A DNA stretch of 64,000 bases. It comes from an uncultured Planctomycetaceae bacterium (GTDB lineage Bacteria; Planctomycetota; Planctomycetia; Planctomycetales; Planctomycetaceae). The notes under the pieces are model-generated. The model made no database searches. It saw nothing but the letters and a program-made list of their open reading frames with translations, and was not told where the DNA came from. The stretch is taken from positions 544,001 to 608,000 of the forward strand of contig CAWFGE010000012.1 in assembly GCA_963815195.1 (NCBI GenBank), written 5' to 3'. Position numbers and translations under genes: made by a program. This document shows, piece by piece, positions 27,893 to 35,131 of this stretch. Each line of letters begins with the position of its first letter. The first letter of the stretch is position 1.

Positions 27893-29082
27893 TTCTCCAC
27901 GTCGATATGGATGCGTTTTATGCTTCGGTCGAAGAGCGGGAGAATCCCCGACTCGTCGGAAAGCCGTTGATCGTCGGCGGCACGCCCGCAGGACGCGGCG
28001 TCGTCGCGGCGGCCAACTATGTCGTGCGGACGTTTGGCGTCCACAGCGCCATGCCCACCCGGACGGCGCTCCGGCTTTGCCCGGAGGCGATCGTGCTCCC
28101 GCCGCGGATGGAGTATTACGCCGAGACTTCCCGGCAGATTCGCGACGTGCTCTTCCGGTATACGCCTTTCGTCGAACCGCTCTCCTTGGACGAGGCCTTC
28201 CTCGATGTGACGGCGAGCGCAAAGCTGTTCGGCTCGGGGGCCGAAATCGCCAGGCAAATCAAGCAGGATATTCTCCGGGAAACCCGCCTGGTGGCGTCCG
28301 TGGGCGTGGCTCCCAACAAGTTCCTGGCGAAGATCGCCAGCGACCTGCAAAAACCCGACGGCCTGGTTGTCGTGGAACCGGACCGGATCGCCGAGTTTCT
28401 CGACCCCTTGCCCGTGGGCCGATTGTGGGGCGTCGGCAAAGTGACCGGCAGCGTGTTCGACCGCTGGGGCATCACCACCATCGGCGAACTGCGGCGGCTC
28501 GATCCAAAGATCCTGCACCAACAGTTCGGCCAGCAGGGAGAGCATTTCGCCAAACTGGCGCGGGGACTCGATGACCGCTCGGTCGTTCCCGATCGCGAAG
28601 CCAAGTCGATTTCCCACGAGACGACATTTGCCGCGGACATCTCCAACCGCGAGGCCCTCCGAGCGTGGTTATTGGAGCTGACGGAACACGTAGCCCGGCG
28701 GATGCGGCAGCAACAGCGGCGCGGCCGGACCGTGAACCTCAAGCTCCGCTTCGCCAACTTTCGCACGATCACGCGGGCTAAGACCTTGCCCCGCAGCACA
28801 AACGTGACGCAGGAAATTTGGCAAGCGGCGAGCGAATTGTTAATGCGCCACCTGCCCGAGTCGCATGCGGGCATCCGATTGTTGGGCGTCGGCGTCAGCA
28901 ACTTTTCGGCGGGCGAGGCTGTGCAGAAATCCCTGTTTGCGGAGGAAACGCATCAAAAACAGCAGCAACTCGACGAAGTGGCCGATGCAGTGCGGGCCAA
29001 GTTCGGGAACACCGCGCTCAACCGCGGCAGCGGTTTGCTCCACAACGCCCGGCACCGCCCCGAGCCCAAACCGAACGAATAA
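27889..29082 (+). CDS. dinB: DNA polymerase IV
   Basis: ILHVDMDAFYASVE, SLDEAFLD, KFLAKIASDLQKPDG motifs. Confidence 0.96.
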   Translation: MILHVDMDAFYASVEERENPRLVGKPLIVGGTPAGRGVVAAANYVVRTFGVHSAMPTRTALRLCPEAIVLPPRMEYYAETSRQIRDVLFRYTPFVEPLSLDEAFLDVTASAKLFGSGAEIARQIKQDILRETRLVASVGVAPNKFLAKIASDLQKPDGLVVVEPDRIAEFLDPLPVGRLWGVGKVTGSVFDRWGITTIGELRRLDPKILHQQFGQQGEHFAKLARGLDDRSVVPDREAKSISHETTFAADISNREALRAWLLELTEHVARRMRQQQRRGRTVNLKLRFANFRTITRAKTLPRSTNVTQEIWQAASELLMRHLPESHAGIRLLGVGVSNFSAGEAVQKSLFAEETHQKQQQLDEVADAVRAKFGNTALNRGSGLLHNARHRPEPKPNE

Positions 29083-29171
29083 AAAACTCCTGGAAAAGGC
29101 CGAGGAAACTTAAGAATTCGCCGAATCCTGAATCACCCCAGCGCATATATTGTTCTGTCGCCCAAAACCTG

Positions 29172-29200
29172 GCGAACCATTTCGCGGGTTGTGCGTCTAA
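29172..29200 (+). promoter_or_regulatory. Putative ECF sigma promoter for the tRNA/Y-RNA/TROVE locus
   Basis: GAACC-N15-CGTCTAA ending 8 nt before tRNA-Trp; resembles the ECF -35 GAAC / -10 CGTC consensus. Confidence 0.55.
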
Positions 29201-29208
29201 CCCTTCAC

Positions 29209-29279
29209 ACGCCTCTAGTGTAATGGCAGCATGACTGGCTCCAACCCAGTTGGTCAGGGTTCAAATCCTTGGGGGCGTG
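29209..29279 (+). tRNA. tRNA-Trp(CCA)
   Basis: Acceptor ACGCCTC/GGGGCGT; ACTGG-CTCCAAC-CCAGT; T-loop TTCAAAT. Confidence 0.9.
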
Positions 29280-29307
29280 CTGGCGAACGAACCTTCGCTC
29301 GCCAAAT

Positions 29308-29378
29308 GGGCTCATCGTCCAACAGGAAGATGCCGGTGTCGCAAGCCGGAGATCCCGGTGCAATTCCGGGTGGGTCCA
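29308..29378 (+). tRNA. tRNA-Ala(CGC)
   Basis: GGGCTCA/TGGGTCC with G3:U70; CCGGT-GTCGCAA-GCCGG; atypical T-loop TGCAATT. Confidence 0.85.
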
Positions 29379-29389
29379 CTCCTCAATAC

Positions 29390-29462
29390 AGTCCTGTGGC
29401 CTAGCGGCGAAGGCAGCTCCCTTACAAGGAGACGAGCGGGGGTTCGAGTCCCTCCAGGACTA
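29390..29462 (+). tRNA. tRNA-Val(TAC)
   Basis: AGTCCTG/CAGGACT; loop CTTACAA; T-loop TTCGAGT. Confidence 0.9.
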
Positions 29463-29470
29463 CTCACCAC

Positions 29471-29544
29471 GCCCAGATACCCCAACCGGCAGAGCGACTC
29501 GGCTTAAAACCGAGTGTTTGCAGGTTCGATTCCTGCTCTGGGTC
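29471..29544 (+). tRNA. tRNA-Leu(TAA), short variable loop
   Basis: GCCCAGA/TCTGGGT; CTCGG-CTTAAAA-CCGAG; 5-nt variable region; discriminator appears to be C. Confidence 0.8.
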
Positions 29545-29558
29545 GTGAAGACAAACTC

Positions 29559-29632
29559 GGCTCGGTAGGCAAATGGCAGACCACCTTGGCTTAGAACTAG
29601 GGATGCTGTGGGTTCGAGTCCCACCTGAGCCA
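29559..29632 (+). tRNA. tRNA-Leu(TAG), short variable loop
   Basis: GGCTCGG/CTGAGCC; CTTGG-CTTAGAA-CTAGG; T-loop TTCGAGT. Confidence 0.87.
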
Positions 29633-29645
29633 CTCAAACAAATAC

Positions 29646-29718
29646 GCCCTCGTGGAGCAGCGGAGTGCTCGCCTGCCTGTCACGCAGGAGATCGTCGGTT
29701 CAAATCCGATCGGGGGTG
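29646..29718 (+). tRNA. tRNA-Asp(GTC)
   Basis: GCCCTCG/CGGGGGT; CCTGC-CTGTCAC-GCAGG; G73. Confidence 0.92.
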
Positions 29719-29725
29719 CTGAAAT

Positions 29726-29802
29726 GGCACGGTACGCAAATGGAAAAGCGGCGAAGCTCAAACCTTCGTGATTGTCTGTGGGTTCGACTCCCTCCCGTGC
29801 TA
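29726..29802 (+). tRNA. tRNA-Leu(CAA)
   Basis: GGCACGG/CCGTGCT; CGAAG-CTCAAAC-CTTCG; reduced 9-nt variable region. Confidence 0.87.
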
Positions 29803-29815
29803 CTCAAATGATGAT

Positions 29816-29896
29816 GCGTCGGCTGGGCATTGGCGAGCCCAAGTGGCTGTAACCCACCCGCCTATCGCTGTGGCGGTTCGACTCCGTCCCGACGCA
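29816..29896 (+). tRNA. tRNA-Tyr(GTA)
   Basis: GCGTCGG/CCGACGC; loop CTGTAAC; 13-nt variable arm. Confidence 0.88.
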
Positions 29897-29904
29897 CTCA
29901 AAAA

Positions 29905-29977
29905 GGCCCGTTCGTCTATCGGTTAAGGACACCAGCCTCTCACGCTGGAAAGATGGGTTCGATTCCCGTACGGGTCA
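29905..29977 (+). tRNA. tRNA-Glu(CTC)
   Basis: GGCCCGT/ACGGGTC; CCAGC-CTCTCAC-GCTGG. Confidence 0.92.
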
Positions 29978-29984
29978 CTGACTT

Positions 29985-30054
29985 TGCAGGTGCGGCAGGT
30001 GCCCAATCGGCTTTCATAAGGCCGGTGTGCTCGGCTCGATACCGGGACCTGCAA
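29985..30054 (+). tRNA. Atypical tRNA(CAT) (Met or Ile2), reduced D-arm
   Basis: TGCAGGT/ACCTGCA; CGGCT-TTCATAA-GGCCG; T-loop CTCGATA. Confidence 0.7.
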
Positions 30055-30069
30055 CTTATCCAACATTGA

Positions 30070-30138
30070 CGCGGGTGAGCCAGTGCTCATTCAGGCCTCA
30101 TAAGCCAGAACAGCCGGGTGCGACTCCCGGACCCGCTA
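30070..30138 (+). tRNA. Atypical initiator-like tRNA(CAT)
   Basis: CGCGGGT/ACCCGCT with C1xU72 mismatch; loop CTCATAA; 4-nt D-loop; T-loop TGCGACT. Confidence 0.7.
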
Positions 30139-30146
30139 CTTGTCCA

Positions 30147-30221
30147 GGCCGGGTACGCAAACCGGAAAAGCGGGCAGGTCGAGAACGTGCGATTCTGTGG
30201 GTTCGACTCCCACTCTGGTCA
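30147..30221 (+). tRNA. tRNA-Leu(GAG), short variable loop, C33
   Basis: GGCCGGG/TCTGGTC; loop TCGAGAA; one G.G mismatch in the anticodon stem. Confidence 0.75.
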
Positions 30222-30228
30222 CTCGAAT

Positions 30229-30301
30229 GATCCCGTGGTCCAGTGGCGAAGACGCCTGGATGACACCCAGGAGATCGGTAGTTCGATTCTACCCGGGATC
30301 A
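30229..30301 (+). tRNA. tRNA-Val(GAC)
   Basis: GATCCCG/CGGGATC; CCTGG-ATGACAC-CCAGG. Confidence 0.9.
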
Positions 30302-30313
30302 CTTGCGACAACT

Positions 30314-30384
30314 GGTCTGTAGGTGTTGTGGCCGCACGCCGCTGTGGTAAGGCGGAAGACCGGGTTCAATCCCCGGACGGACCT
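30314..30384 (+). tRNA. tRNA-Thr(GGT)
   Basis: GGTCTGT/ACGGACC; CCGCT-GTGGTAA-GGCGG. Confidence 0.85.
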
Positions 30385-30394
30385 CTCGACAAAT

Positions 30395-30485
30395 GGGCCT
30401 GCATGCCGATGGAGGCGACTGATCCTTGCAAGATCGGTGGACCACCCCAAGGGGCGGTGCCCCGGTTCAACTCCGATCAGGTCCA
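30395..30485 (+). tRNA. tRNA-Ala(TGC) with an inserted hairpin in the variable region
   Basis: GGGCCTG/CAGGTCC with G3:U70; TGATC-CTTGCAA-GATCG; ~23-nt variable region; imperfect T-stem. Confidence 0.7.
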
Positions 30486-30496
30486 CTGAAGGAAAC

Positions 30497-30567
30497 GGGC
30501 TGATGGTCCAAGGGGAAGACACCGCCCTGGCGTGGCGGAAATCCGAGTTCGACTCTCGGTCAGTCCA
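30497..30567 (+). tRNA. tRNA-Ala(GGC)
   Basis: GGGCTGA/TCAGTCC with G3:U70; CCGCC-CTGGCGT-GGCGG. Confidence 0.87.
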
Positions 30568-30576
30568 CTCACATAC

Positions 30577-30664
30577 GGAAGGTAACCGAATTGGCTTAGG
30601 AAACTGGGTGCTAACCAGTCGCCCTGGAACTGGGGTTGGATGGGTTCGATTCCCCCACCTTCCG
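30577..30664 (+). tRNA. tRNA-Ser(GCT)
   Basis: GGAAGGT/ACCTTCC, G73; ACTGG-GTGCTAA-CCAGT; long variable arm. Confidence 0.82.
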
Positions 30665-30669
30665 CTTAT

Positions 30670-30741
30670 GGCTCGATGGTGAAACGGACATCATGTCTCG
30701 CTTCTAACGAGATGTTCCAGGTTCAAATCCTGGTCGAGCTA
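30670..30741 (+). tRNA. tRNA-Arg(TCT)
   Basis: GGCTCGA/TCGAGCT; TCTCG-CTTCTAA-CGAGA. Confidence 0.9.
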
Positions 30742-30775
30742 TTCCACATCACTGTGGAGGAAAAACTATCAACAT

Positions 30776-30849
30776 GGTGTCCGTGGTGTATGCGGTAGGC
30801 ACGCCTGCCTGTGAAGCAGGAAGTGAGGGTTCAACTCCCTTCGGTCACC
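30776..30849 (+). tRNA. tRNA-His(GTG)
   Basis: G-1:C73 pair; CCTGC-CTGTGAA-GCAGG. Confidence 0.9.
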
Positions 30850-30864
30850 CTTCGACAACGTCAT

Positions 30865-30938
30865 GCCGACGTGGCTCGACTAAGAAAGGCGCCGCTCTTG
30901 TAAAGCGGCTTATGCTGGTGCAAATCCAGTCGTCGGCT
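30865..30938 (+). tRNA. tRNA-Thr(TGT)
   Basis: GCCGACG/CGTCGGC; CCGCT-CTTGTAA-AGCGG; D-loop lacks GG; T-loop TGCAAAT. Confidence 0.82.
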
Positions 30939-31023
30939 CTTTTTGGTTTTGGTGGCTGAAATGTCGATTCACCATTATTCGCTTACGCGGCGCTGAGCTA
31001 TGTTCTGTCATGTGATTGAAAAA

Positions 31024-31095
31024 GTCCCGATGGTGTAACGGACAACACGAGACTTTCCTAAAGTTTCGATCCTGGTTCGATTCCAGGTCGGGATA
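31024..31095 (+). tRNA. tRNA-Arg(CCT)
   Basis: GTCCCGA/TCGGGAT; AGACT-TTCCTAA-AGTTT. Confidence 0.87.
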
Positions 31096-31106
31096 CTCAA
31101 CAACTG

Positions 31107-31177
31107 GCCTTGCGAGTGTGAGGGACGCACGGCGGTCTTCGGAACCGCAAGACGGGGTTCGACTCCCTGGCGAGGTG
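31107..31177 (+). tRNA. tRNA-Arg(TCG)
   Basis: GCCTTGC/GCGAGGT; GCGGT-CTTCGGA-ACCGC. Confidence 0.85.
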
Positions 31178-31265
31178 CTTGCAGAAGCGGAGAGCCAAGG
31201 GCGGAGAGCACAGAGCCAAACCGATTATATACCAAGCGTTCCGGCTCTCAACTCTCCGCTGTTTT

Positions 31266-31338
31266 GTCCTTGGAGTGTGCCGGATTCGCACGCGAGCCCG
31301 CGAAGCTCGCAGACCAGGTTCAATTCCTGGCGAGGACA
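31266..31338 (+). tRNA. tRNA-Arg(GCG), rare anticodon, C33
   Basis: GTCCTTG/CGAGGAC; CGAGC-CCGCGAA-GCTCG; T-loop TTCAATT. Confidence 0.8.
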
Positions 31339-31349
31339 TTTTCGATATG

Positions 31350-31421
31350 GACGCTGGAGCCGGATGGTGAGGCGGCTGCCTGCAAAGCAGCCAGAAGTGG
31401 GTTCGATTCCCACCGGCGTCT
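31350..31421 (+). tRNA. tRNA-Cys(GCA)
   Basis: GACGCTG/CGGCGTC, U73; GCTGC-CTGCAAA-GCAGC. Confidence 0.9.
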
Positions 31422-31423
31422 CT

Positions 31424-31496
31424 GACCGACCAACTGCCGGTTCGGACTACATCCTGTAAAGAGGCGTGTCTGAACTTATTCCTTCGTTGGAAGGTC
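31424..31496 (+). ncRNA. Y-RNA-like cassette A (minimal insert)
   Basis: CCAAC-TGCCG-GTTCGGAC-TACAT...GTCTGAAC-TTATTCCTTC-GTTGG closing stem shared with cassettes B-G. Confidence 0.65.
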
Positions 31497-31505
31497 GCGA
31501 TAAAA

Positions 31506-31679
31506 GCCCAACTGCCGGCTGGGAGTCCATGACGGTCCTAAGGTAGCGATGCCGGGCGACCGGCTAGTGAATGGCGCTCGAGTCTCTCCGAGATGAAGGG
31601 GCCAGTCAACAGTCAGCGATTGACTTCGCTGATACGGACGGCCGAAGCGAAAGCATCTCTTGGCCACCCTTCGTTGGGT
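31506..31679 (+). ncRNA. Y-RNA-like cassette B carrying a circularly permuted 23S rRNA H67-H71 mimic
   Basis: Shared closing stem GCCCAAC/GTTGGGT and GGCTGGGAG/CTCTTGGCC; insert contains ACGGTCCTAAGGTAGCGA, GAATGGCG and a terminal GACGGCCG. Confidence 0.7.
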
Positions 31680-31690
31680 CACAACAAAAC

Positions 31691-31800
31691 GGCGACTGCC
31701 AGTTCGGAATACATCGGCTGTCCAGTGAGTCTGGCGATCGCTTTGCGATTGGCGGGTTCGATTCCCGTACGGAATTGTTTCTGACCACAACTTCGTCGCC
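31691..31800 (+). ncRNA. Y-RNA-like cassette C (two hairpins plus a tRNA T-arm)
   Basis: GGCGAC/GTCGCC closing stem; insert CCAG-tgagt-CTGG, CGATCGC-ttt-GCGATTG, GCGGG-TTCGATT-CCCGT. Confidence 0.65.
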
Positions 31801-31810
31801 ACCAAAAAAC

Positions 31811-31946
31811 GACCGACTGCCGAATTGGAGTCCATGGCTCATAACCCGGGAGTGTGGGTTCGAATCCCACCGGCGCCACTTGAAACCGAGCGCCGTAGCT
31901 TAATGGCAGAGCACCGTAAGTCTCTGGTTCAACCACCTCGTCGGTC
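31811..31946 (+). ncRNA. YrlA-like Y RNA, cassette D (circularly permuted tRNA with CAT anticodon-loop remnant)
   Basis: GACCGAC/GTCGGTC closing stem; order CTCATAA, T-arm GTGGG-TTCGAAT-CCCAC, loop-closed acceptor CGGCGC/GCGCCG, D-arm GCTT-AATGGCA-GAGC. Confidence 0.85.
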
Positions 31947-32093
31947 ATCTTGCATTTGAGGATAAAGGATTGAGCAATGTGTGTCCGTGTGGCGAGTTAC
32001 GCGATGCTATTTACAGGCGGCCACTGATCGTCGTCTGCATCGCGTGAATCGTACCACGACCATTCCATCCTTTTTGACTCAAGCGTGAGAACT

Positions 32094-32462
32094 ATGAACA
32101 CCACGACAGAAATCTGCCCTGAAACGACGGTCGCTGCGCGGATCGCGGGTGAGGACATCGCCTGCGGTGACTTTGTCAGCGTCCTCAACGAGGTCATCGA
32201 GTTGCCTTCGTTCCTATGGAACGGCTCTGCGGTTTCGCTCACAGCGGAAGAACCCGTTCGCATCCGTTACGCGGCGAGCGACGCCGGCCAGCCTTACCAG
32301 GTGATCGGCATTTGCCTGCCCTTCGTCTATGCCAAGACGCCGGGCGGGTCTGTTGCGACCATCGACACGCGCCAGCGCCAGTTGGTGCGACTCGACGAAA
32401 ACTGCGCCCGCAGGGTTTGGCAAGAACTGACGAAACCGCGTTCCGAGAAGAAGCGAAAATAG
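32094..32462 (+). CDS. Hypothetical protein embedded in the Y-RNA cassette array
   Basis: 122-aa ORF with a plausible globular composition, co-oriented with the RNA locus; no family recognised. Confidence 0.7.
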   Translation: MNTTTEICPETTVAARIAGEDIACGDFVSVLNEVIELPSFLWNGSAVSLTAEEPVRIRYAASDAGQPYQVIGICLPFVYAKTPGGSVATIDTRQRQLVRLDENCARRVWQELTKPRSEKKRK

Positions 32463-32474
32463 ATTTTGAAAACA

Positions 32475-32620
32475 CCCGACTGCTTGCTGGAGTCCATAAA
32501 ACTGTTGTTTTCGAAAACGAAGACCGTGGGTTCGAATCCCACCAAACACTTTCCATCGAAAGTTGTTTGTGGCGGAGCGGCCAAACGCGACAGAAAACCT
32601 CTGACATACTCTTCGTCGGG
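32475..32620 (+). ncRNA. YrlA-like Y RNA, cassette E (circularly permuted class II tRNA)
   Basis: CCCGAC/GTCGGG closing stem; CTGT/ACAG anticodon stem, variable hairpin GTTTT-CG-AAAAC, T-arm, closed acceptor CAAACA/TGTTTG, D-arm GCG-GAGCGGCCAAA-CGC. Confidence 0.82.
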
Positions 32621-32637
32621 ATTTTGAAACGAAAACC

Positions 32638-32759
32638 CACTCGACTGCCGGTGTGGAGTACATGGCAAAGGATCGAAAGATCTAGCGGGTTCAAATCCCG
32701 CCCCGTCCGCTCCAAGAAAACGAACGGACGGGTTCTCTGTCCCAAAACTTCGTCGAGTG
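32638..32759 (+). ncRNA. Y-RNA-like cassette F (T-arm plus closed acceptor-like stem, no D-arm)
   Basis: CACTCGAC/GTCGAGTG closing stem; GATC-GAAA-GATC, GCGGG-TTCAAAT-CCCGC, CCCGTCCG/CGGACGGG. Confidence 0.72.
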
Positions 32760-32774
32760 TTTTTTTAAGAAAAC

Positions 32775-32829
32775 GATCCGACTGCCGGTGTGGAGTCGGA
32801 TCATTCCCTTCGTCGAGTTCGTGCTCGAC
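32775..32829 (+). ncRNA. Insert-less cassette G in the leader of the TROVE gene
   Basis: CCGACTGCCGGTGTGGAGT and CCCTTCGTCG motifs with no cargo between them; alternative hairpins GATCCGAC/GTCGGATC and GTCGAG/CTCGAC. Confidence 0.5.
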
Positions 32830-32852
32830 TGCATTTAAGAAAGGAAAGAAAG

Positions 32853-34463
32853 ATGGCCAACAAGACTTTGTTTTCCAGCAGCAAGAATTCTCTGCCGCGG
32901 ACGGATACCTATAACGAGGCCGGAGGCCAGGCTTACCAGTTTTCGCCGAAGCATGCGCTGGCGCAGATGGCGGCGACCGGCTGCTTCAATGGGGTTTTCT
33001 ACGCGAGCGCCAAGAGCCAACTGGATGAGACGCGGAAGCTGATCGACCAGGTGGATGACAACGTCTTCCTGGCGAAGCTGGCGGTTTACGCGCGTGAGCG
33101 AGCCTACATGAAGGACATGCCGGCGGCGCTGTTGGTCGTTCTGTCCAAGCGGGACACCGAACTGTTGCACCGCGTGTTCGATCGGGTGGTGGACAACGGC
33201 CGCGTGCTGCGAACCATGTTTCAGATGATCCGTTCGGGACAGTTCGGCCGCACCAGCCTGTCGTCCAGTTTGCAGCGGGCGTTCCAGCGGTGGTTGAACG
33301 AGGCGTCGGTCGGGAAGCTCTTGTCGGCTTCGATCGGAAACGATCCGAGTCTGCGGGACGTGCTGCGGATGGCTCGACCAACGCCGAAAGATAACGAACG
33401 GCGTGCGCTGTTCGGTTGGCTGACGGACAAGGAGACCGAGAAGTGGGCTCCCGCCACCCAAGCCGACCTGCCGGCGCAGGTCCAGTCGCTGATCGCGTAC
33501 CGCCAGGCGGAAACCGCCGAGATGCAGGCGCTCATCCTGGGCGATCTGTCGGTGCGTTGGGATCTCTTGGCGGATGCGGCCAAGGGTCCGCTGGTCTGGA
33601 AGGGCATCGCCCGCCAGATGGGACCGCAGGCCCTGCGGATGAACCTCAACACGCTTCTGCGTCACGAGGTTCTGAAGGATGCCGAGATGGTGGATTACGT
33701 GGCCAGCCGCCTGGCGGATGCGAATGAAATCCATCGCTCGCGGCAGTTTCCGTACCAGTTCCTGGCGGCATACCTGAACGCCTCGGCTGAGGTTCCGCAA
33801 AAGATCAAGGCCGCTTTGCATCAGGCGGCTGAGATTGCTTGCGGCAACGTGCCAGAATTGCCGGGTCCGGTCGTCATCGGTCTGGACACGTCCGGTTCGA
33901 TGTCCATGCCGGCCACGGGTTGGCGGGGCCGCGGTGCGACCAGCAAGATGCGGTGCGTCGATGTGGCGGCTTTGTTCGCCGCGGCGATTCTCCGCCGCAA
34001 CCCAGACAGCGTGATCGTTCCATTCGACACGCAAGCGTACGACGTCCGCATCGATCCGGCCGACTCGATCCTGAGCCTGTCGGAGCGGCTGGCGAAGTAC
34101 GGCGGCGGGGGAACGGACTGTTCGATTCCCCTCCGCACGGCCAACACAAAGTTCAATAGGCAAGCGTTTGCGGGCTGCGTGCTGGTCAGCGACAACGAGA
34201 GTTGGGTCGGCACGGGCCGCTACGGCTCGACCGGCGTGATGACCGAGTGGCAGACGTTCGTCAAGAACCAGACGCTCTTGGGCATCGCCGATCCAAAGCT
34301 GGTTTGCATCGACATCCAGCCCTATGGTTCGACGCAGGCTCCCGAGCGAGACAACATCCTGAACATCGGCGGCTTCAGTGACGCGGTGTTCCACGTCGTC
34401 GCCTCGTACCTCGCAGGCGACGCCGCCCGGTTCGTCGCCGAGGTGGAGTCGATCGAGCTGTAA
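32853..34463 (+). CDS. rsr: Ro60/Rsr-like TROVE domain RNA-binding protein with C-terminal vWA domain
   Basis: [10 protein letters not shown]-terminus, [23 protein letters not shown] motif [38 protein letters not shown] upstream. Confidence 0.93.
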
Positions 34464-34478
34464 TGGCTCTGTTGAATG

Positions 34479-34520
34479 GAAACGCCCCTGGTCTGAGCGA
34501 TCGGACCCGGGGCGTTTTTC
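34479..34520 (+). terminator. Intrinsic terminator after the TROVE gene
   Basis: AAACGCCCC-t-GGTCTGA-gcga-TCGGACC-c-GGGGCGTTT hairpin followed by a T run. Confidence 0.75.
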
Positions 34521-34648
34521 GTTCTGACAAGGAGTAAAAGGCCTTTTTTGACGGCCCTGGCGATTATTTCCAAAAATATTTCAGATATATTATTGACATG
34601 ACAATAGATTATATGTCAAGTTATTGCGAAGGAGGTGACTCAGAACCC

Positions 34649-35131
34649 ATGGCGCGCAGCAGACTTCAAGATGAGCTGAAAAAGAAACGATCGTTCGATT
34701 CGCTGGAGCAGCCGGCGATTTTGAACATCCTGCGGACGAGCGATCAGTTTCAGAATCGTTTCGGGCGATTGTTTCGGGAATACGGTCTGACCTCATCCCA
34801 GTACAACGTGCTGCGAATCCTCCGGGGCGAAGGCCGGCCGATGCCTTGCCTGGAAATTGCCGAGCGGATGATACAAGTGGTTCCGGCCATGACGGGGCTC
34901 TTGGATCGGTTGGAGAAGCAGGGACTCGTGTCGCGGGAACGCTGCACGGAAGACCGCCGCGTGGTTTACGTGGACCTGACAAAGAAGGCGAAGGAATTGC
35001 TCAAGGAGATGGACGCTCCCGTGAGCGAACTCCACCACGAACTTGTCGGCCATCTCACGCGGGCGGAACTGAAAGAACTCAGCCGCCTGTTGGAAAAGGC
35101 GCGAACGGCTCTTGATGAAAGCCAAGGTTGA
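34649..35131 (+). CDS. MarR family transcriptional regulator
   Basis: YGLTSSQYNVLRIL...LLDRLEKQGLVSR...DRRVVYVDLT; GAAGGAGG RBS. Confidence 0.93.
   Translation: MARSRLQDELKKKRSFDSLEQPAILNILRTSDQFQNRFGRLFREYGLTSSQYNVLRILRGEGRPMPCLEIAERMIQVVPAMTGLLDRLEKQGLVSRERCTEDRRVVYVDLTKKAKELLKEMDAPVSELHHELVGHLTRAELKELSRLLEKARTALDESQG

What the first reader, a model, noticed from the sequence alone, without database searches (positions are those of the whole stretch)
31811..31946. Permuted tRNA mimic that keeps a complete CAT anticodon loop sequence at the opening point
Seen: GG-CTCATAA-CCCGG precedes the T-arm, the acceptor stem is closed by a 13-nt loop, and the D-arm is followed by CCG, which can pair with CGG. 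The fold resembles a Met/Ile2 tRNA opened just 5' of the anticodon loop and grafted onto the cassette stem. Known: YrlA has this T-before-D topology, and some toxins such as enteric VapC cleave tRNA-fMet in the anticodon stem-loop. Inference: a decoy or sensor for Met-tRNA-specific nucleases.
Basis: partly seen in the sequence, partly recalled or inferred. Interest (0 to 1): 0.7.

Follow-up and report, generated by a model that had tools for sequence, protein, structure and literature searches.

The report
Y RNA with full tRNA mimic
This is a small non-coding RNA of the known Y-RNA (YrlA) kind, lying just upstream of the gene for its partner protein Ro60, and its tRNA-shaped part is unusually complete because it also keeps an anticodon-like hairpin; the CAT in that loop is not a conserved methionine signal.

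Summary
Window 31810-31946 (+) is a 137-nt YrlA-class Y RNA. It is the fourth of six or seven tandem Y-RNA cassettes lying between a 21-gene tRNA array and rsr (Ro60) in a Pirellulaceae genome. Its order is terminal stem, 2-bp/7-nt hairpin (GG-CUCAUAA-CC), CGG, T arm, closed acceptor stem (6 bp, 13-nt loop), D arm, CCG, terminal stem.

Fifty-four distinct homologues support every helix: 97.4% of cells are paired and 17 pairs show compensatory change. The tiny hairpin is supported too (31:39 = C:G 30, G:C 18, A:U 6, none unpaired). Hairpin plus CGG/CCG rebuild a 5-bp anticodon stem. After in-silico re-permutation ARAGORN of 54 as tRNAs, against 0 of 57 natively.

The Met reading fails. The loop consensus is Y-U-C-A-N-R-A. 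CAU occurs in 18 of 53 loops, CAG in 17, and the exact heptamer in 6. The body is no closer to this genome's tRNA-Met genes than to other tRNAs.

The family was already listed as putative YrlA in 2014, but published YrlA "lacks the anticodon loop". This is therefore a new variant of a known kind. The nuclease-decoy idea is untested. It is not excluded in a general form, but it cannot be Met-specific.

The parts
31811..31817 (+). P1, 5' strand of the terminal stem (pairs with 31940-31946)
   Evidence: 7 pairs, 98.9% paired, 5 with compensatory changes on 54 distinct sequences
31818..31835 (+). Conserved 5' strand of the presumed Rsr-binding module (CUGCCG...GGAGUCCAU). It includes P2 at 31823-31830 and the linker UCCAU at 31831-31835.
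   Evidence: Repeated in 4 cassettes (family D1). Near-invariant in 57 homologues. P2 is 89.7% paired, and RNAalifold chose a different small hairpin here. Near match to the published GNCGAAN0-1G motif.
31836..31846 (+). Anticodon-like hairpin: G30 G31 / C32 U33 C34 A35 U36 A37 A38 / C39 C40
   Evidence: 30:40 is G:C in 54 of 54. 31:39 is C:G 30, G:C 18, A:U 6, none unpaired. Predicted independently by RNAalifold. Loop statistics.
31847..31849 (+). 3' strand of the lower anticodon stem (positions 41-43), pairs with 31914-31916
   Evidence: 100% paired. The outer pair shows G:C 46, C:G 5, A:U 2, U:A 1.
31850..31853 (+). Variable loop (GAGU); its last base is the Levitt partner of A15
   Evidence: 15:48 is A:U in 39 and G:C in 15 of 54, with no exception
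31854..31870 (+). T arm (5 bp, loop UUCGAAU)
   Evidence: 100% paired, 3 pairs with compensatory changes. The loop is UUCGANU in 53 of 54.
31871..31895 (+). Acceptor-like stem (6 bp) closed by a 13-nt loop (31877-31889)
   Evidence: 99.7% paired, 3 covarying pairs. 1:72 is unpaired in 45 of 54. A73 in 49 of 54, U75 in 49 of 54. Loop length 13-43 nt.
31896..31913 (+). U8 A9, D arm (4 bp, loop AAUGGCA), A26
   Evidence: U8 in 53 of 54, A14 in 54 of 54, G18G19 in 53 of 54. The D stem is 100% paired.
31914..31916 (+). 5' strand of the lower anticodon stem (positions 27-29)
31917..31946 (+). 3' linker (UAAGU), 3' strand of P2 (31922-31929), conserved internal-loop strand (..CCUCG) and 3' strand of P1 (31940-31946)
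31427..31492 (+). Cassette 1: short Y-like stem-loop with the same stem strands
   Evidence: R1 model 27.3 bits; repeat family D1
31505..31679 (+). Cassette 2: the same stem with a 118-nt insert
   Evidence: R1 26.3 bits
31689..31801 (+). Cassette 3: the same stem, with a T-arm-like hairpin only
   Evidence: R1 36.8 bits
32473..32621 (+). Cassette 5: tRNA-like domain with a long variable-arm hairpin and no anticodon hairpin
   Evidence: R1 45.3 bits; sequence read
32638..32758 (+). Cassette 6: GNRA hairpin, T arm and 8-bp stem-loop, no D arm
   Evidence: R1 52.9 bits; sequence read
32775..32835 (+). Minimal Y-like stem in the rsr leader
   Evidence: R1 8.8 bits, E 0.035, weak. Both conserved strands are visible.
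32790..34463 (+). rsr (Ro60 orthologue); the likely true start is the ATG at 32853, which follows a purine-rich (GGAAAG) stretch
   Evidence: Pfam vWA_Ro60 1.7e-13 and TROVE 1.8e-11. D. radiodurans Rsr 2nvo_A at E 7.5e-20 over residues 35-544. Relatives align from residue 13-22 onward.
29209..31422 (+). Array of 21 tRNA genes directly upstream of the cassettes
   Evidence: ARAGORN, 21 genes; Rfam tRNA, 15 at gathering score

Best explanation
The element is a YrlA-class bacterial Y RNA. Its two ends pair into a stem whose conserved strands are shared by all neighbouring cassettes. I infer that this stem is the binding site of the Ro60 orthologue Rsr, which is encoded about 0.9 kb downstream on the same strand.

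The rest is a circularly permuted tRNA: T arm, then an acceptor stem closed by a loop, then the D arm. Salmonella YrlA has no anticodon loop. In this RNA the 5' strand first makes a 2-bp/7-nt hairpin. The hairpin shares a continuous strand (positions 39-43) with the 3-bp CGG/CCG helix. I infer that it stacks on that helix, rebuilding a 5-bp anticodon stem with a U-turn loop. The domain is then a whole tRNA shape, and the Rsr-binding stem leaves through a nick between positions 29 and 30.

Inferred function, as for other Y RNAs: Rsr holds the stem while the tRNA-shaped module is the effector or recognition face. It would recruit or occupy a protein that normally reads tRNA, such as PNPase, modification enzymes or another tRNA-binding factor. 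The anticodon arm would be a required part of that surface.

The triplet CAU is one of four CAN variants of a loop constrained to Y-U-C-A-N-R-A. It is not a methionine identity element.

Shown: sequence, position, family, helices, loop constraints. Inferred: Rsr binding, stacking, effector role. Expression has not been shown.
For: Context: rsr is downstream on the same strand. There are six cassettes at E <= 0.003 plus a weak seventh, all sharing the stem strands. The cassette motif is found 6 times within 1.3 kb here against 24 loose matches in the other 17.7 Mb of both strands.

Family: the Rfam YrlA match has the T, acceptor and D helices aligned. The putative R. maiorica YrlA listed by Chen et al. 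2014 (ANOG01000509 7269-7425; supplement file 4) is the same RNA as my locus hit L096:391-537 (142.8 bits).

Structure: 97.4% of cells are paired and 17 pairs show compensatory change. All five measures exceed all 500 shuffles and all slid controls. RNAalifold finds the hairpin and the lower stem unprompted. The Levitt pair 15:48 covaries A:U 39 / G:C 15 with no exception. U8, A14, G18G19 and the T loop are near-invariant.

Completeness: 54 of 54 distinct sequences are called tRNAs by ARAGORN after re-permutation, with the anticodon placed in the hairpin loop; 0 of 57 are called natively. A sister subtype opens one pair earlier (3-bp hairpin plus 2-bp lower stem), so the sum stays at 5 bp.

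Loop: U33 and R35 together in 48 of 53, R37 in 50 of 53, CAN in 42 of 53, N36 entropy 1.76 bits. On a quick tree built without the hairpin columns, the 31:39 pair changes state at least 15 times and is always paired (the tree is weakly resolved).
Against: There is no expression or binding evidence of any kind.

The Rfam YrlA score (31.9 bits) is far below the gathering score of 69. No YrlA match at gathering score was found in 16 related loci (113,787 bases), where all 87 matches were tRNA.

A 2-bp hairpin adds nothing in the nearest-neighbour model (-35.0 kcal/mol with or without it). The single-sequence MFE (-48.9) is a different fold. The element's z-score is only -1.81, and 12 of 200 shuffles fold as well.

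The presumed Rsr-binding helix P2 is the least supported helix (89.7% paired), and RNAalifold preferred another small hairpin there. The published 5'-strand motif GNCGAAN0-1G is matched only approximately (GCCGAAUUG).

Conservation of C34 and A35 goes beyond what a U-turn needs, since a U-turn constrains only U33 and R35 (recalled rule). A purely structural role does not explain it.

The sequences are related, so cell counts overstate the number of independent events.
Confidence: 0.75

Rival explanations
1. Bait, decoy or competitive inhibitor for tRNA anticodon nucleases. The exposed anticodon arm occupies, or is cut by, toxins that attack tRNA anticodon loops. This would protect real tRNAs, or change the Rsr-Y RNA particle when cut.
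For: The domain is a complete tRNA shape including the loop that such nucleases cut. Hughes et al. 2020 suggest that the Salmonella YrlA tRNA-like domain may competitively inhibit the SOS-induced anticodon nuclease (PMC7790460, passages). The cassettes lie directly behind a redundant spare set of tRNAs, and 33 anticodons occur both in arrays and outside them. Where one locus has two complete tRNA-like cassettes, their triplets differ: CAG and UUU in L036, UGA and CAG in L040, CAU and CAA in L075, CAU and CAG in L100.
Against: CAU is not conserved (18 of 53), so a Met-specific target is unlikely. C34 and A35 are conserved in 42 of 53, which is not what a library of baits would show. None of the 13 ORFs scanned between 23571 and 44209 has a nuclease or toxin domain. 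RtcB is on another contig. In Salmonella no YrlA fragments were seen after nuclease induction (PMC7790460), although that RNA has no loop to cut.
Confidence: 0.15
2. Initiator-tRNA (P-site) mimic. The CAN loop reads NUG start codons, and the G:C-rich stem copies the initiator hallmark. The mimic would steer Rsr and its nuclease partner to the small ribosomal subunit for rRNA quality control or decay.
For: Forty-two of 53 loops are CAN. G29:C41 and G30:C40 are invariant in 54 of 54, and 31:39 is G:C in 18, including this window. The 7-nt loop equals that of this genome's initiator-like tRNA on contig 8. Rsr acts on rRNA in D. radiodurans (PMC4201824, abstract and introduction). That three consecutive G:C pairs mark bacterial initiators is recalled knowledge.
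Against: 11:24 is C:G in 49 of 54, not the A:U recalled for bacterial initiators. 31:39 is mostly C:G (30 of 54). The other two CAU tRNAs with typical stems carry the same loop. The Rsr stem leaves the anticodon stem where the 30S subunit would contact it. The sister subtype has CUU, UCU, UUU, UCC and GUU loops. There are no data on ribosome binding.
Confidence: 0.05
3. A true permuted tRNA gene. The transcript would be opened at the acceptor loop, the stem removed and positions 29/30 joined, giving a working tRNA-Met.
For: ARAGORN calls the re-permuted sequence tRNA-Met. M. smegmatis YrlA is cut by RNase P and receives CCA (PMC4201824, passages).
Against: The triplet differs among close relatives while the body stays the same. 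1:72 is unpaired in 45 of 54, so the acceptor stem has only 6 bp; Chen et al. name 7 bp as the RNase P determinant. The loop begins ACU, not CCA. The stem strands are the most conserved part of the RNA, which is not expected for a discarded leader and trailer. No bacterial pathway for such splicing is known to me (recalled). The genome already has four CAU tRNAs.
Confidence: 0.02
4. Chance resemblance or a decayed tRNA remnant at the end of the tRNA array, with no function.
For: It lies behind a tRNA array. Its T arm and acceptor strand are 88% identical over 24 nt to the neighbouring tRNA-Cys (family D3). Single-sequence folding is not significant.
Against: It is conserved full-length upstream of rsr in dozens of genomes, with compensatory changes in every helix.
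Confidence: 0.01

Closest known systems
YrlA (Y RNA-like A) of Salmonella Typhimurium, M. smegmatis and about 250 other bacteria (Chen et al. 2014, PMC4201824; Wang et al. 2018, bioRxiv 10.1101/312249; Rfam RF02553)
   Same: Encoded within 4 kb of rsr on the same strand. Terminal stem plus a tRNA-like domain in the order T arm, closed acceptor stem, D arm. tRNA tertiary nucleotides are present and the Levitt pair covaries between A:U and G:C. Putative YrlA entries for Pirellula staleyi, Planctomyces brasiliensis, Rhodopirellula baltica and R. maiorica are already in the 2014 supplement, and the R. maiorica entry coincides with a member of this family.
   Different: Published YrlA 'lacks the anticodon loop', and its anticodon-like stem runs straight into the Ro60-binding stem. 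Here a covarying 2-bp/7-nt hairpin completes a 5-bp anticodon stem, and the Ro60 stem branches off at 29/30. The Rfam score is 31.9 against a gathering score of 69. The 5'-strand motif is CUGCCG..GGAG rather than GNCGAAN0-1G. Other Planctomycetota families do have GGCGAAUG, and mostly lack the hairpin (2 of 12 inspected have one). It occurs in tandem arrays of up to about 10 cassettes, and is not linked to rtcBA.
Yrn1 of Deinococcus radiodurans (Chen et al. 2014, passages)
   Same: A Y RNA bound by Rsr. It can be drawn with a potential 5-bp 'anticodon arm' and a T-like arm.
   Different: In Yrn1 the stem-loop between the arms takes the anticodon position, its loop has 6 nt, there is no full D arm and no variable loop, and the orientation is different. 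Here all four tRNA arms are present.
Permuted tRNA genes of the red alga Cyanidioschyzon merolae, and two-piece (permuted) tmRNA genes (recalled knowledge, no call)
   Same: The 3' half of a tRNA fold is encoded upstream of the 5' half.
   Different: Those are matured into working tRNA or tmRNA. Here the ends form a conserved protein-binding stem, the acceptor end stays closed in the gene, and the triplet is not conserved. ARAGORN found no tmRNA, and Rfam tmRNA scored 20.4 against a gathering score of 47.
[quoted passage not shown] 2015, PMC4758250; Santamaria-Gomez et al. 2021, PMC8421152; passages)
   Same: The neighbouring 21-tRNA array fits the definition. Both papers list Planctomycetes among the phyla that have such arrays.
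   Different: In the passages searched, neither paper mentions Y RNA ('Y RNA' and 'tRNA-like' each 0 occurrences in PMC8421152). The conserved order tRNA array, Y-RNA array, rsr seen here was not found in print (0 papers with 'tRNA array' and 'Ro60').

Membership tests
YrlA (Chen et al. 2014; Rfam RF02553) | Encoded within about 4 kb of the Ro60 orthologue, on the same strand | tested here: met
   The element ends at 31946. The rsr ORF starts at 32790 and the likely ATG is at 32853, both on the + strand.
YrlA (Chen et al. 2014; Rfam RF02553) | tRNA-like domain in the order T arm, closed acceptor-like stem, D arm, with tRNA tertiary nucleotides and a covarying Levitt pair | tested here: met
   15:48 is A:U 39 / G:C 15; U8 in 53 of 54; A14 in 54 of 54; G18G19 in 53 of 54.
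YrlA (Chen et al. 2014; Rfam RF02553) | Score at or above Rfam's gathering threshold (69 bits) | tested here: not met
   31.9 bits, E 5.9e-5. No YrlA match at gathering score in the window or in 16 related loci. This is a curation threshold, not a structural feature.
YrlA (Chen et al. 2014; Rfam RF02553) | Ro60-binding stem with GNCGAAN0-1G on the 5' strand | tested here: inconclusive
   Window 31819-31827 reads GCCGAAUUG, one N too many. The family consensus is CUGCCG(N3-5)GGAG. Other Planctomycetota relatives carry GGCGAAUG.
YrlA (Chen et al. 2014; Rfam RF02553) | Bound by Rsr in cells; carries pseudouridine 55 and dihydrouridine | not testable with these tools
   No RNA run was listed for this sequence.
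YrlA (Chen et al. 2014; Rfam RF02553) | No anticodon loop; the anticodon-like stem is continuous with the Ro60 stem (Wang et al. 2018) | tested here: not met
   A covarying 7-nt-loop hairpin is present. This is the point on which the RNA is a variant.
Canonical tRNA gene | Collinear cloverleaf detected by ARAGORN or Rfam RF00005 | tested here: not met
   Not called at 31810-31946. 0 of 57 native family members are called.
tRNA-Met / tRNA-Ile2 / initiator tRNA derivative | CAU conserved, and the body closest to CAU tRNAs | tested here: not met
   CAU in 18 of 53 loops. The best-matching tRNAs of the genome are Leu(UAG) and Thr(UGU), and the four CAU tRNAs score no higher.
Two-piece tmRNA | tRNA-Ala-like domain plus a tag reading frame | tested here: not met
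   ARAGORN found no tmRNA. The Rfam tmRNA match is 20.4 bits against a gathering score of 47 and covers the T arm and acceptor only.

The most novel reading that the evidence does not exclude
In Pirellulales the Ro60 system carries whole, circularly permuted tRNAs with a real anticodon arm. They sit in arrays of up to about ten Y RNAs directly behind a spare 20-plus-gene tRNA array. Under this reading the island is a tRNA-centred stress or conflict module. The anticodon arm of the Y RNA would be read as a tRNA. Either tRNA-cutting toxins read it, so that it acts as bait, sensor or competitive inhibitor. Or, because the loop is constrained to CAN (which reads NUG start codons) above two invariant G:C pairs, the ribosomal P site reads it. 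In the second case the Y RNA aims Rsr and its nuclease at small ribosomal subunits.
Probability: 0.12. Interest if true: 0.85.

Novelty: new variant of a known kind. Interest (0 to 1): 0.6.

Why it matters
The purpose of the tRNA-like domain of bacterial Y RNAs has been open since 2014. The published view is that YrlA mimics tRNA but has no anticodon loop and no free CCA end.

This lineage shows that the mimic can be a complete tRNA, opened inside the anticodon stem. The anticodon arm is kept by selection: there are compensatory changes, and the stem stays at 5 bp whether the opening is at 28/29 or 29/30.

Hairpin-bearing and hairpin-less cassettes occur side by side in one array. They are natural controls for asking which partner reads the anticodon arm.

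The finding also supports a tRNA origin of YrlA. It shows that Rfam's threshold misses this whole clade. It links Ro60/Y RNAs physically to long tRNA arrays, whose own role under translational stress is only beginning to be studied.

Tried and rejected
**Single-sequence folding.** It recovers P1, the T arm and the acceptor stem but not the D arm, P3 or P4. The z-score is -1.81, so this was dropped as evidence either way.

**Energy of the proposed fold.** The fold evaluates to -35.0 kcal/mol, and the hairpin contributes 0.0.

**Another pairing partner for the loop or linker columns.** Only the 31:39 pair truly covaries, so no pseudoknot is proposed. That screen was noisy, because wobble pairs with invariant columns pass its filter.

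**Kissing between the loop and loops of the other cassettes.** By eye there is no consistent complementarity.

**Similarity of the two halves to the genome's 97 tRNAs.** There is no special likeness to the CAU tRNAs.

**A 'C-type' hairpin class.** Fifteen rows proved to be an alignment artefact. Their real structure is a 4-bp GNRA hairpin in the variable position. They are left out of all loop counts, which rest on alignment A2.

**Expression.** No RNA holder was listed, and read laying was not used.

**Promoter and terminator scan of 28800-34700.** It gave 3 promoter-like sites against 1.7 expected and 9 terminator-like sites against 6.3 expected, none informative.

**Earlier findings of this scan.** None.

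**tmRNA and plastid/group II Rfam hits.** These are weak T-arm matches and were rejected.

**Papers on mycobacterial mobilomes and ncRNAs.** They only list yrlA.

**The Annual Review on bacterial Ro60 (PMC10870794).** It is not held, so I could not check whether it mentions anticodon arms or arrays. Supplement file 6 of Chen et al. 2014 and its supplemental figures could not be searched either, and they may show planctomycete structures.

Full report
**What is there**

On the + strand, window 31810-31946 reads in this order:
- a 7-nt stem strand (31811-31817);
- a conserved strand CUGCCGAAUUGGAGUCCAU;
- a hairpin GG/CUCAUAA/CC (31836-31846);
- CGG (31847-31849);
- a 4-nt variable loop;
- a T arm (31854-31870, loop UUCGAAU);
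- a 6-bp stem closed by a 13-nt loop (31871-31895);
- UA;
- a D arm (31898-31912, loop AAUGGCA);
- A, then CCG (31914-31916), which pairs with the CGG;
- a short linker, a conserved strand, and the partner of the first stem strand (31940-31946).

**Context**

- ARAGORN finds 21 tRNA genes at 29209-31422, all on the + strand.
- The ORF 32790-34463 (+) carries the Ro60 vWA and TROVE domains. It aligns over residues 35-544 with the solved D. radiodurans Rsr (2nvo_A, E 7.5e-20).
- The likely start is the ATG at 32853. It follows a purine-rich stretch, and relatives align from residue 13-22 onward.
- Between the tRNA array and rsr, a covariance model built from the family (R1) finds six cassettes with the same stem strands: 31427-31492, 31505-31679, 31689-31801, 31810-31946 (134.7 bits), 32473-32621 and 32638-32758. 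It also finds a weak seventh in the rsr leader.
- The genome is a Pirellulaceae member, judged from the titles of its nearest rsr loci.

**Relatives and structure**

- A DNA search of 61 related genomes gave full-length matches in four, at 80-87% identity, and a partial match in a fifth.
- The Rsr protein led to 80 further loci. Most carry the element upstream of rsr on the same strand.
- Fifty-seven full-length members, 54 of them distinct, were aligned (A2).

On the structure I wrote from the window sequence:
- 97.4% of 1885 pair cells are standard pairs. Shuffles give 88.2% and slid partners give 35-47%.
- 17 of 35 pairs show changes on both sides.
- None of 500 shuffles reaches any of the five measures.

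The two helices that matter for the finding are both fully paired:
- **Hairpin:** 30:40 is G:C in all 54. 31:39 is C:G 30, G:C 18, A:U 6.
- **Lower stem:** two invariant pairs, and one pair with G:C 46, C:G 5, A:U 2, U:A 1.

Further support:
- RNAalifold, given only the alignment, predicted both helices as well as the T, acceptor and D helices.
- The same-genus relative has A:U where this genome has G:C at 31:39.
- On a quick tree built without the hairpin columns, the 31:39 state changes at least 15 times. The tree is short and weakly resolved, so this is a rough figure.
- tRNA tertiary positions are kept: U8 in 53 of 54, A14 in 54 of 54, G18G19 in 53 of 54. The Levitt pair 15:48 is A:U 39 / G:C 15 without exception.

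**A complete permuted tRNA**

The hairpin (2 bp) and the CGG/CCG helix (3 bp) share a continuous 3' strand (positions 39-43). Together they give the 5 bp of an anticodon stem, opened between positions 29 and 30.

- I re-permuted the 54 distinct sequences in a script, placing the 5' half before the 3' half. ARAGORN then called 54 of 54 as tRNAs with the anticodon in the hairpin loop. It called 0 of 57 native sequences.
- A sister subtype in the same arrays has a 3-bp hairpin and a 2-bp lower stem. It opens at 28/29 and again sums to 5 bp. Its loops have the form CUNNNAA, with CUU, UCU, UUU, UCC or GUU.
- Other cassettes keep the lower stem but have only a 5-7-nt linker in place of the hairpin.
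- Among 12 YrlA-like RNAs inspected from other families of the phylum, 2 have a comparable hairpin and the rest run straight from the stem into the T arm.

**The loop is not a Met signal**

Among 53 seven-nt loops:
- U33 in 50, R35 in 50, R37 in 50, A38 in 46 and Y32 in 48.
- C34-A35 in 42.
- By triplet: CAU 18, CAG 17, CAC 4, CAA 3, and nine other triplets 11.
- The exact CUCAUAA in 6.

Position 36 has 1.76 bits of entropy, as much as the acceptor loop, while U33 is nearly fixed. A looser motif scan of 85 loci gave the same picture: CAU 20 and CAG 20 of 59.

The two halves of the window element match this genome's Leu(UAG) and Thr(UGU) tRNAs as well as, or better than, its four CAU tRNAs. The loop CUCAUAA does equal the loop of this genome's initiator-like tRNA, but also that of the other two CAU tRNAs with typical stems.

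So CAU here is one of four CAN states of a constrained loop. U33 with R35 fits the U-turn rule UNR (recalled knowledge). Real tRNAs of this genome have R35 in only 45 of 94.

**Relation to what is known**

- The Rfam YrlA model aligns 31834-31935 with the T, acceptor and D helices in register, at 31.9 bits (E 5.9e-5). That is below its gathering score of 69.
- At gathering score, neither the window nor 16 related loci give any YrlA match.
- Chen et al. 2014 (passages, section 5 and supplement file 4 read) list putative YrlA RNAs for four planctomycetes.
- Their R. maiorica entry (ANOG01000509, 7269-7425) is the RNA I find at L096:391-537. The gene family is therefore already on record as YrlA.
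- Their text does not mention an anticodon loop in YrlA. Wang et al. 2018 (preprint, passages) state that 'YrlA lacks the anticodon loop' and that its anticodon-like stem leads to the Ro60 stem.
- Searches for 'YrlA' with 'anticodon' (8 papers), 'YrlA' alone (37 papers) and 'Y RNA' with 'Ro60' and 'Planctomycetes' (0 papers) turned up no description of such a hairpin.
- The Annual Review of 2020 is not held. The 2014 supplemental figures and file 6 could not be seen.

**How it most likely works**

- Shown: the RNA gene, its family, its helices and the constraints on its loop.
- Inferred from the Y-RNA literature: Rsr binds the terminal stem, whose strands are the most conserved part and are shared by all cassettes. 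The tRNA-shaped domain is the face offered to a second factor.
- My own inference: the anticodon arm belongs to that face, because selection keeps it paired and keeps the stem at 5 bp.
- Which factor reads it is unknown.

Hughes et al. 2020 (passages) proposed competitive inhibition of an anticodon nuclease for the loop-less Salmonella YrlA, and a loop-bearing mimic would suit that role better. However, the conserved C34-A35 and the free N36 argue against a Met-specific target and against a free library of baits.

A bolder reading notes three things: CAN reads NUG start codons, G29:C41 and G30:C40 are invariant, and the window has three G:C pairs in a row. This would make it an initiator-like arm that could dock in the 30S P site. 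The C11:G24 pair, the C:G majority at 31:39 and the branch point in the anticodon stem argue against it.

**Limits**

- There are no expression data (one search listed no RNA holder), no binding data and no probing data.
- The hairpin is energy-neutral in the nearest-neighbour model, and single-sequence folding prefers another fold.
- The helix I call P2 is the weakest (89.7% paired).
- The sequences are related, so counts of cells are not counts of events.

**Verdict**

The element is a YrlA-class Y RNA with a complete, permuted tRNA mimic including an anticodon arm. It is a new variant of a known kind, and it sits in a conserved layout of tRNA array, Y-RNA array and rsr that I did not find described.

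Noticed in passing
window 29209-31422, with loci L031-L110: The order long tRNA array, then Y-RNA cassettes, then rsr is conserved. Of 84 other rsr loci, 56 hold tRNA calls in the upstream flank held (at most 3.5 kb) and 27 hold five or more. 366 of 367 calls are on the rsr strand. The last tRNA is Cys(GCA) in 44 loci, and the gene order is largely shared. This genome has 97 tRNA calls, 41 of them in three arrays, and 33 anticodons occur both inside and outside arrays. No paper with both 'tRNA array' and 'Ro60' was found.
   Followed up: partly
window 31427-32835 and related loci: Y-RNA cassettes come in tandem arrays. There are six or seven here, and a loose motif count in 85 other loci gives 0-10 (79 loci have at least one; the commonest count is 5). 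The modules differ widely: bare stem-loop, T arm only, whole tRNA mimic, tRNA mimic with a long variable arm, and GNRA hairpin plus T arm.
   Followed up: partly
window 32094-32462 (+): A 122-aa ORF sits inside the cassette array. tblastn finds it at 47-81% identity in 27 other rsr loci. It has no Pfam family. Protein Atlas neighbours are hypothetical proteins, commonest in Planctomycetota. It may be a partner of the Rsr/Y-RNA system.
   Followed up: partly
window 32775-32835 (+): A minimal copy of the two conserved stem strands lies in the rsr leader, 18 nt before the purine-rich stretch and the ATG at 32853. The model match is weak (8.8 bits, E 0.035). It could let Rsr regulate its own mRNA.
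   Followed up: no
G000 contig C10:430116-431348 (-): A second rsr copy, 81% identical over residues 52-463, is interrupted by three TGA codons. No Y-RNA cassette was found beside it. It is probably a pseudogene.
   Followed up: no
G000 contig C1:69247-70553 (+): The only RtcB match of the genome is in two overlapping pieces with a TAA between them, and it is not linked to rsr. In Salmonella, by contrast, rsr, the Y RNAs and rtcBA form one operon.
   Followed up: no
window 31877-31880 and alignment A2: Inside the otherwise free acceptor loop the first bases are kept: A73 in 49 of 54, C74 in 41 of 54 and U75 in 49 of 54. The 1:72 position is unpaired in 45 of 54. This leaves a discriminator-like A and an ACU where a tRNA has ACC.
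   Followed up: partly
window 29978-30147, 30939-31024 and 31178-31265: There are gaps of 85-170 nt inside the otherwise tight tRNA array. Related arrays carry Leu(CAG) and Met(CAU) genes between Glu and Leu(GAG), where the window has its largest gap. These may be decayed tRNA genes.
   Followed up: no
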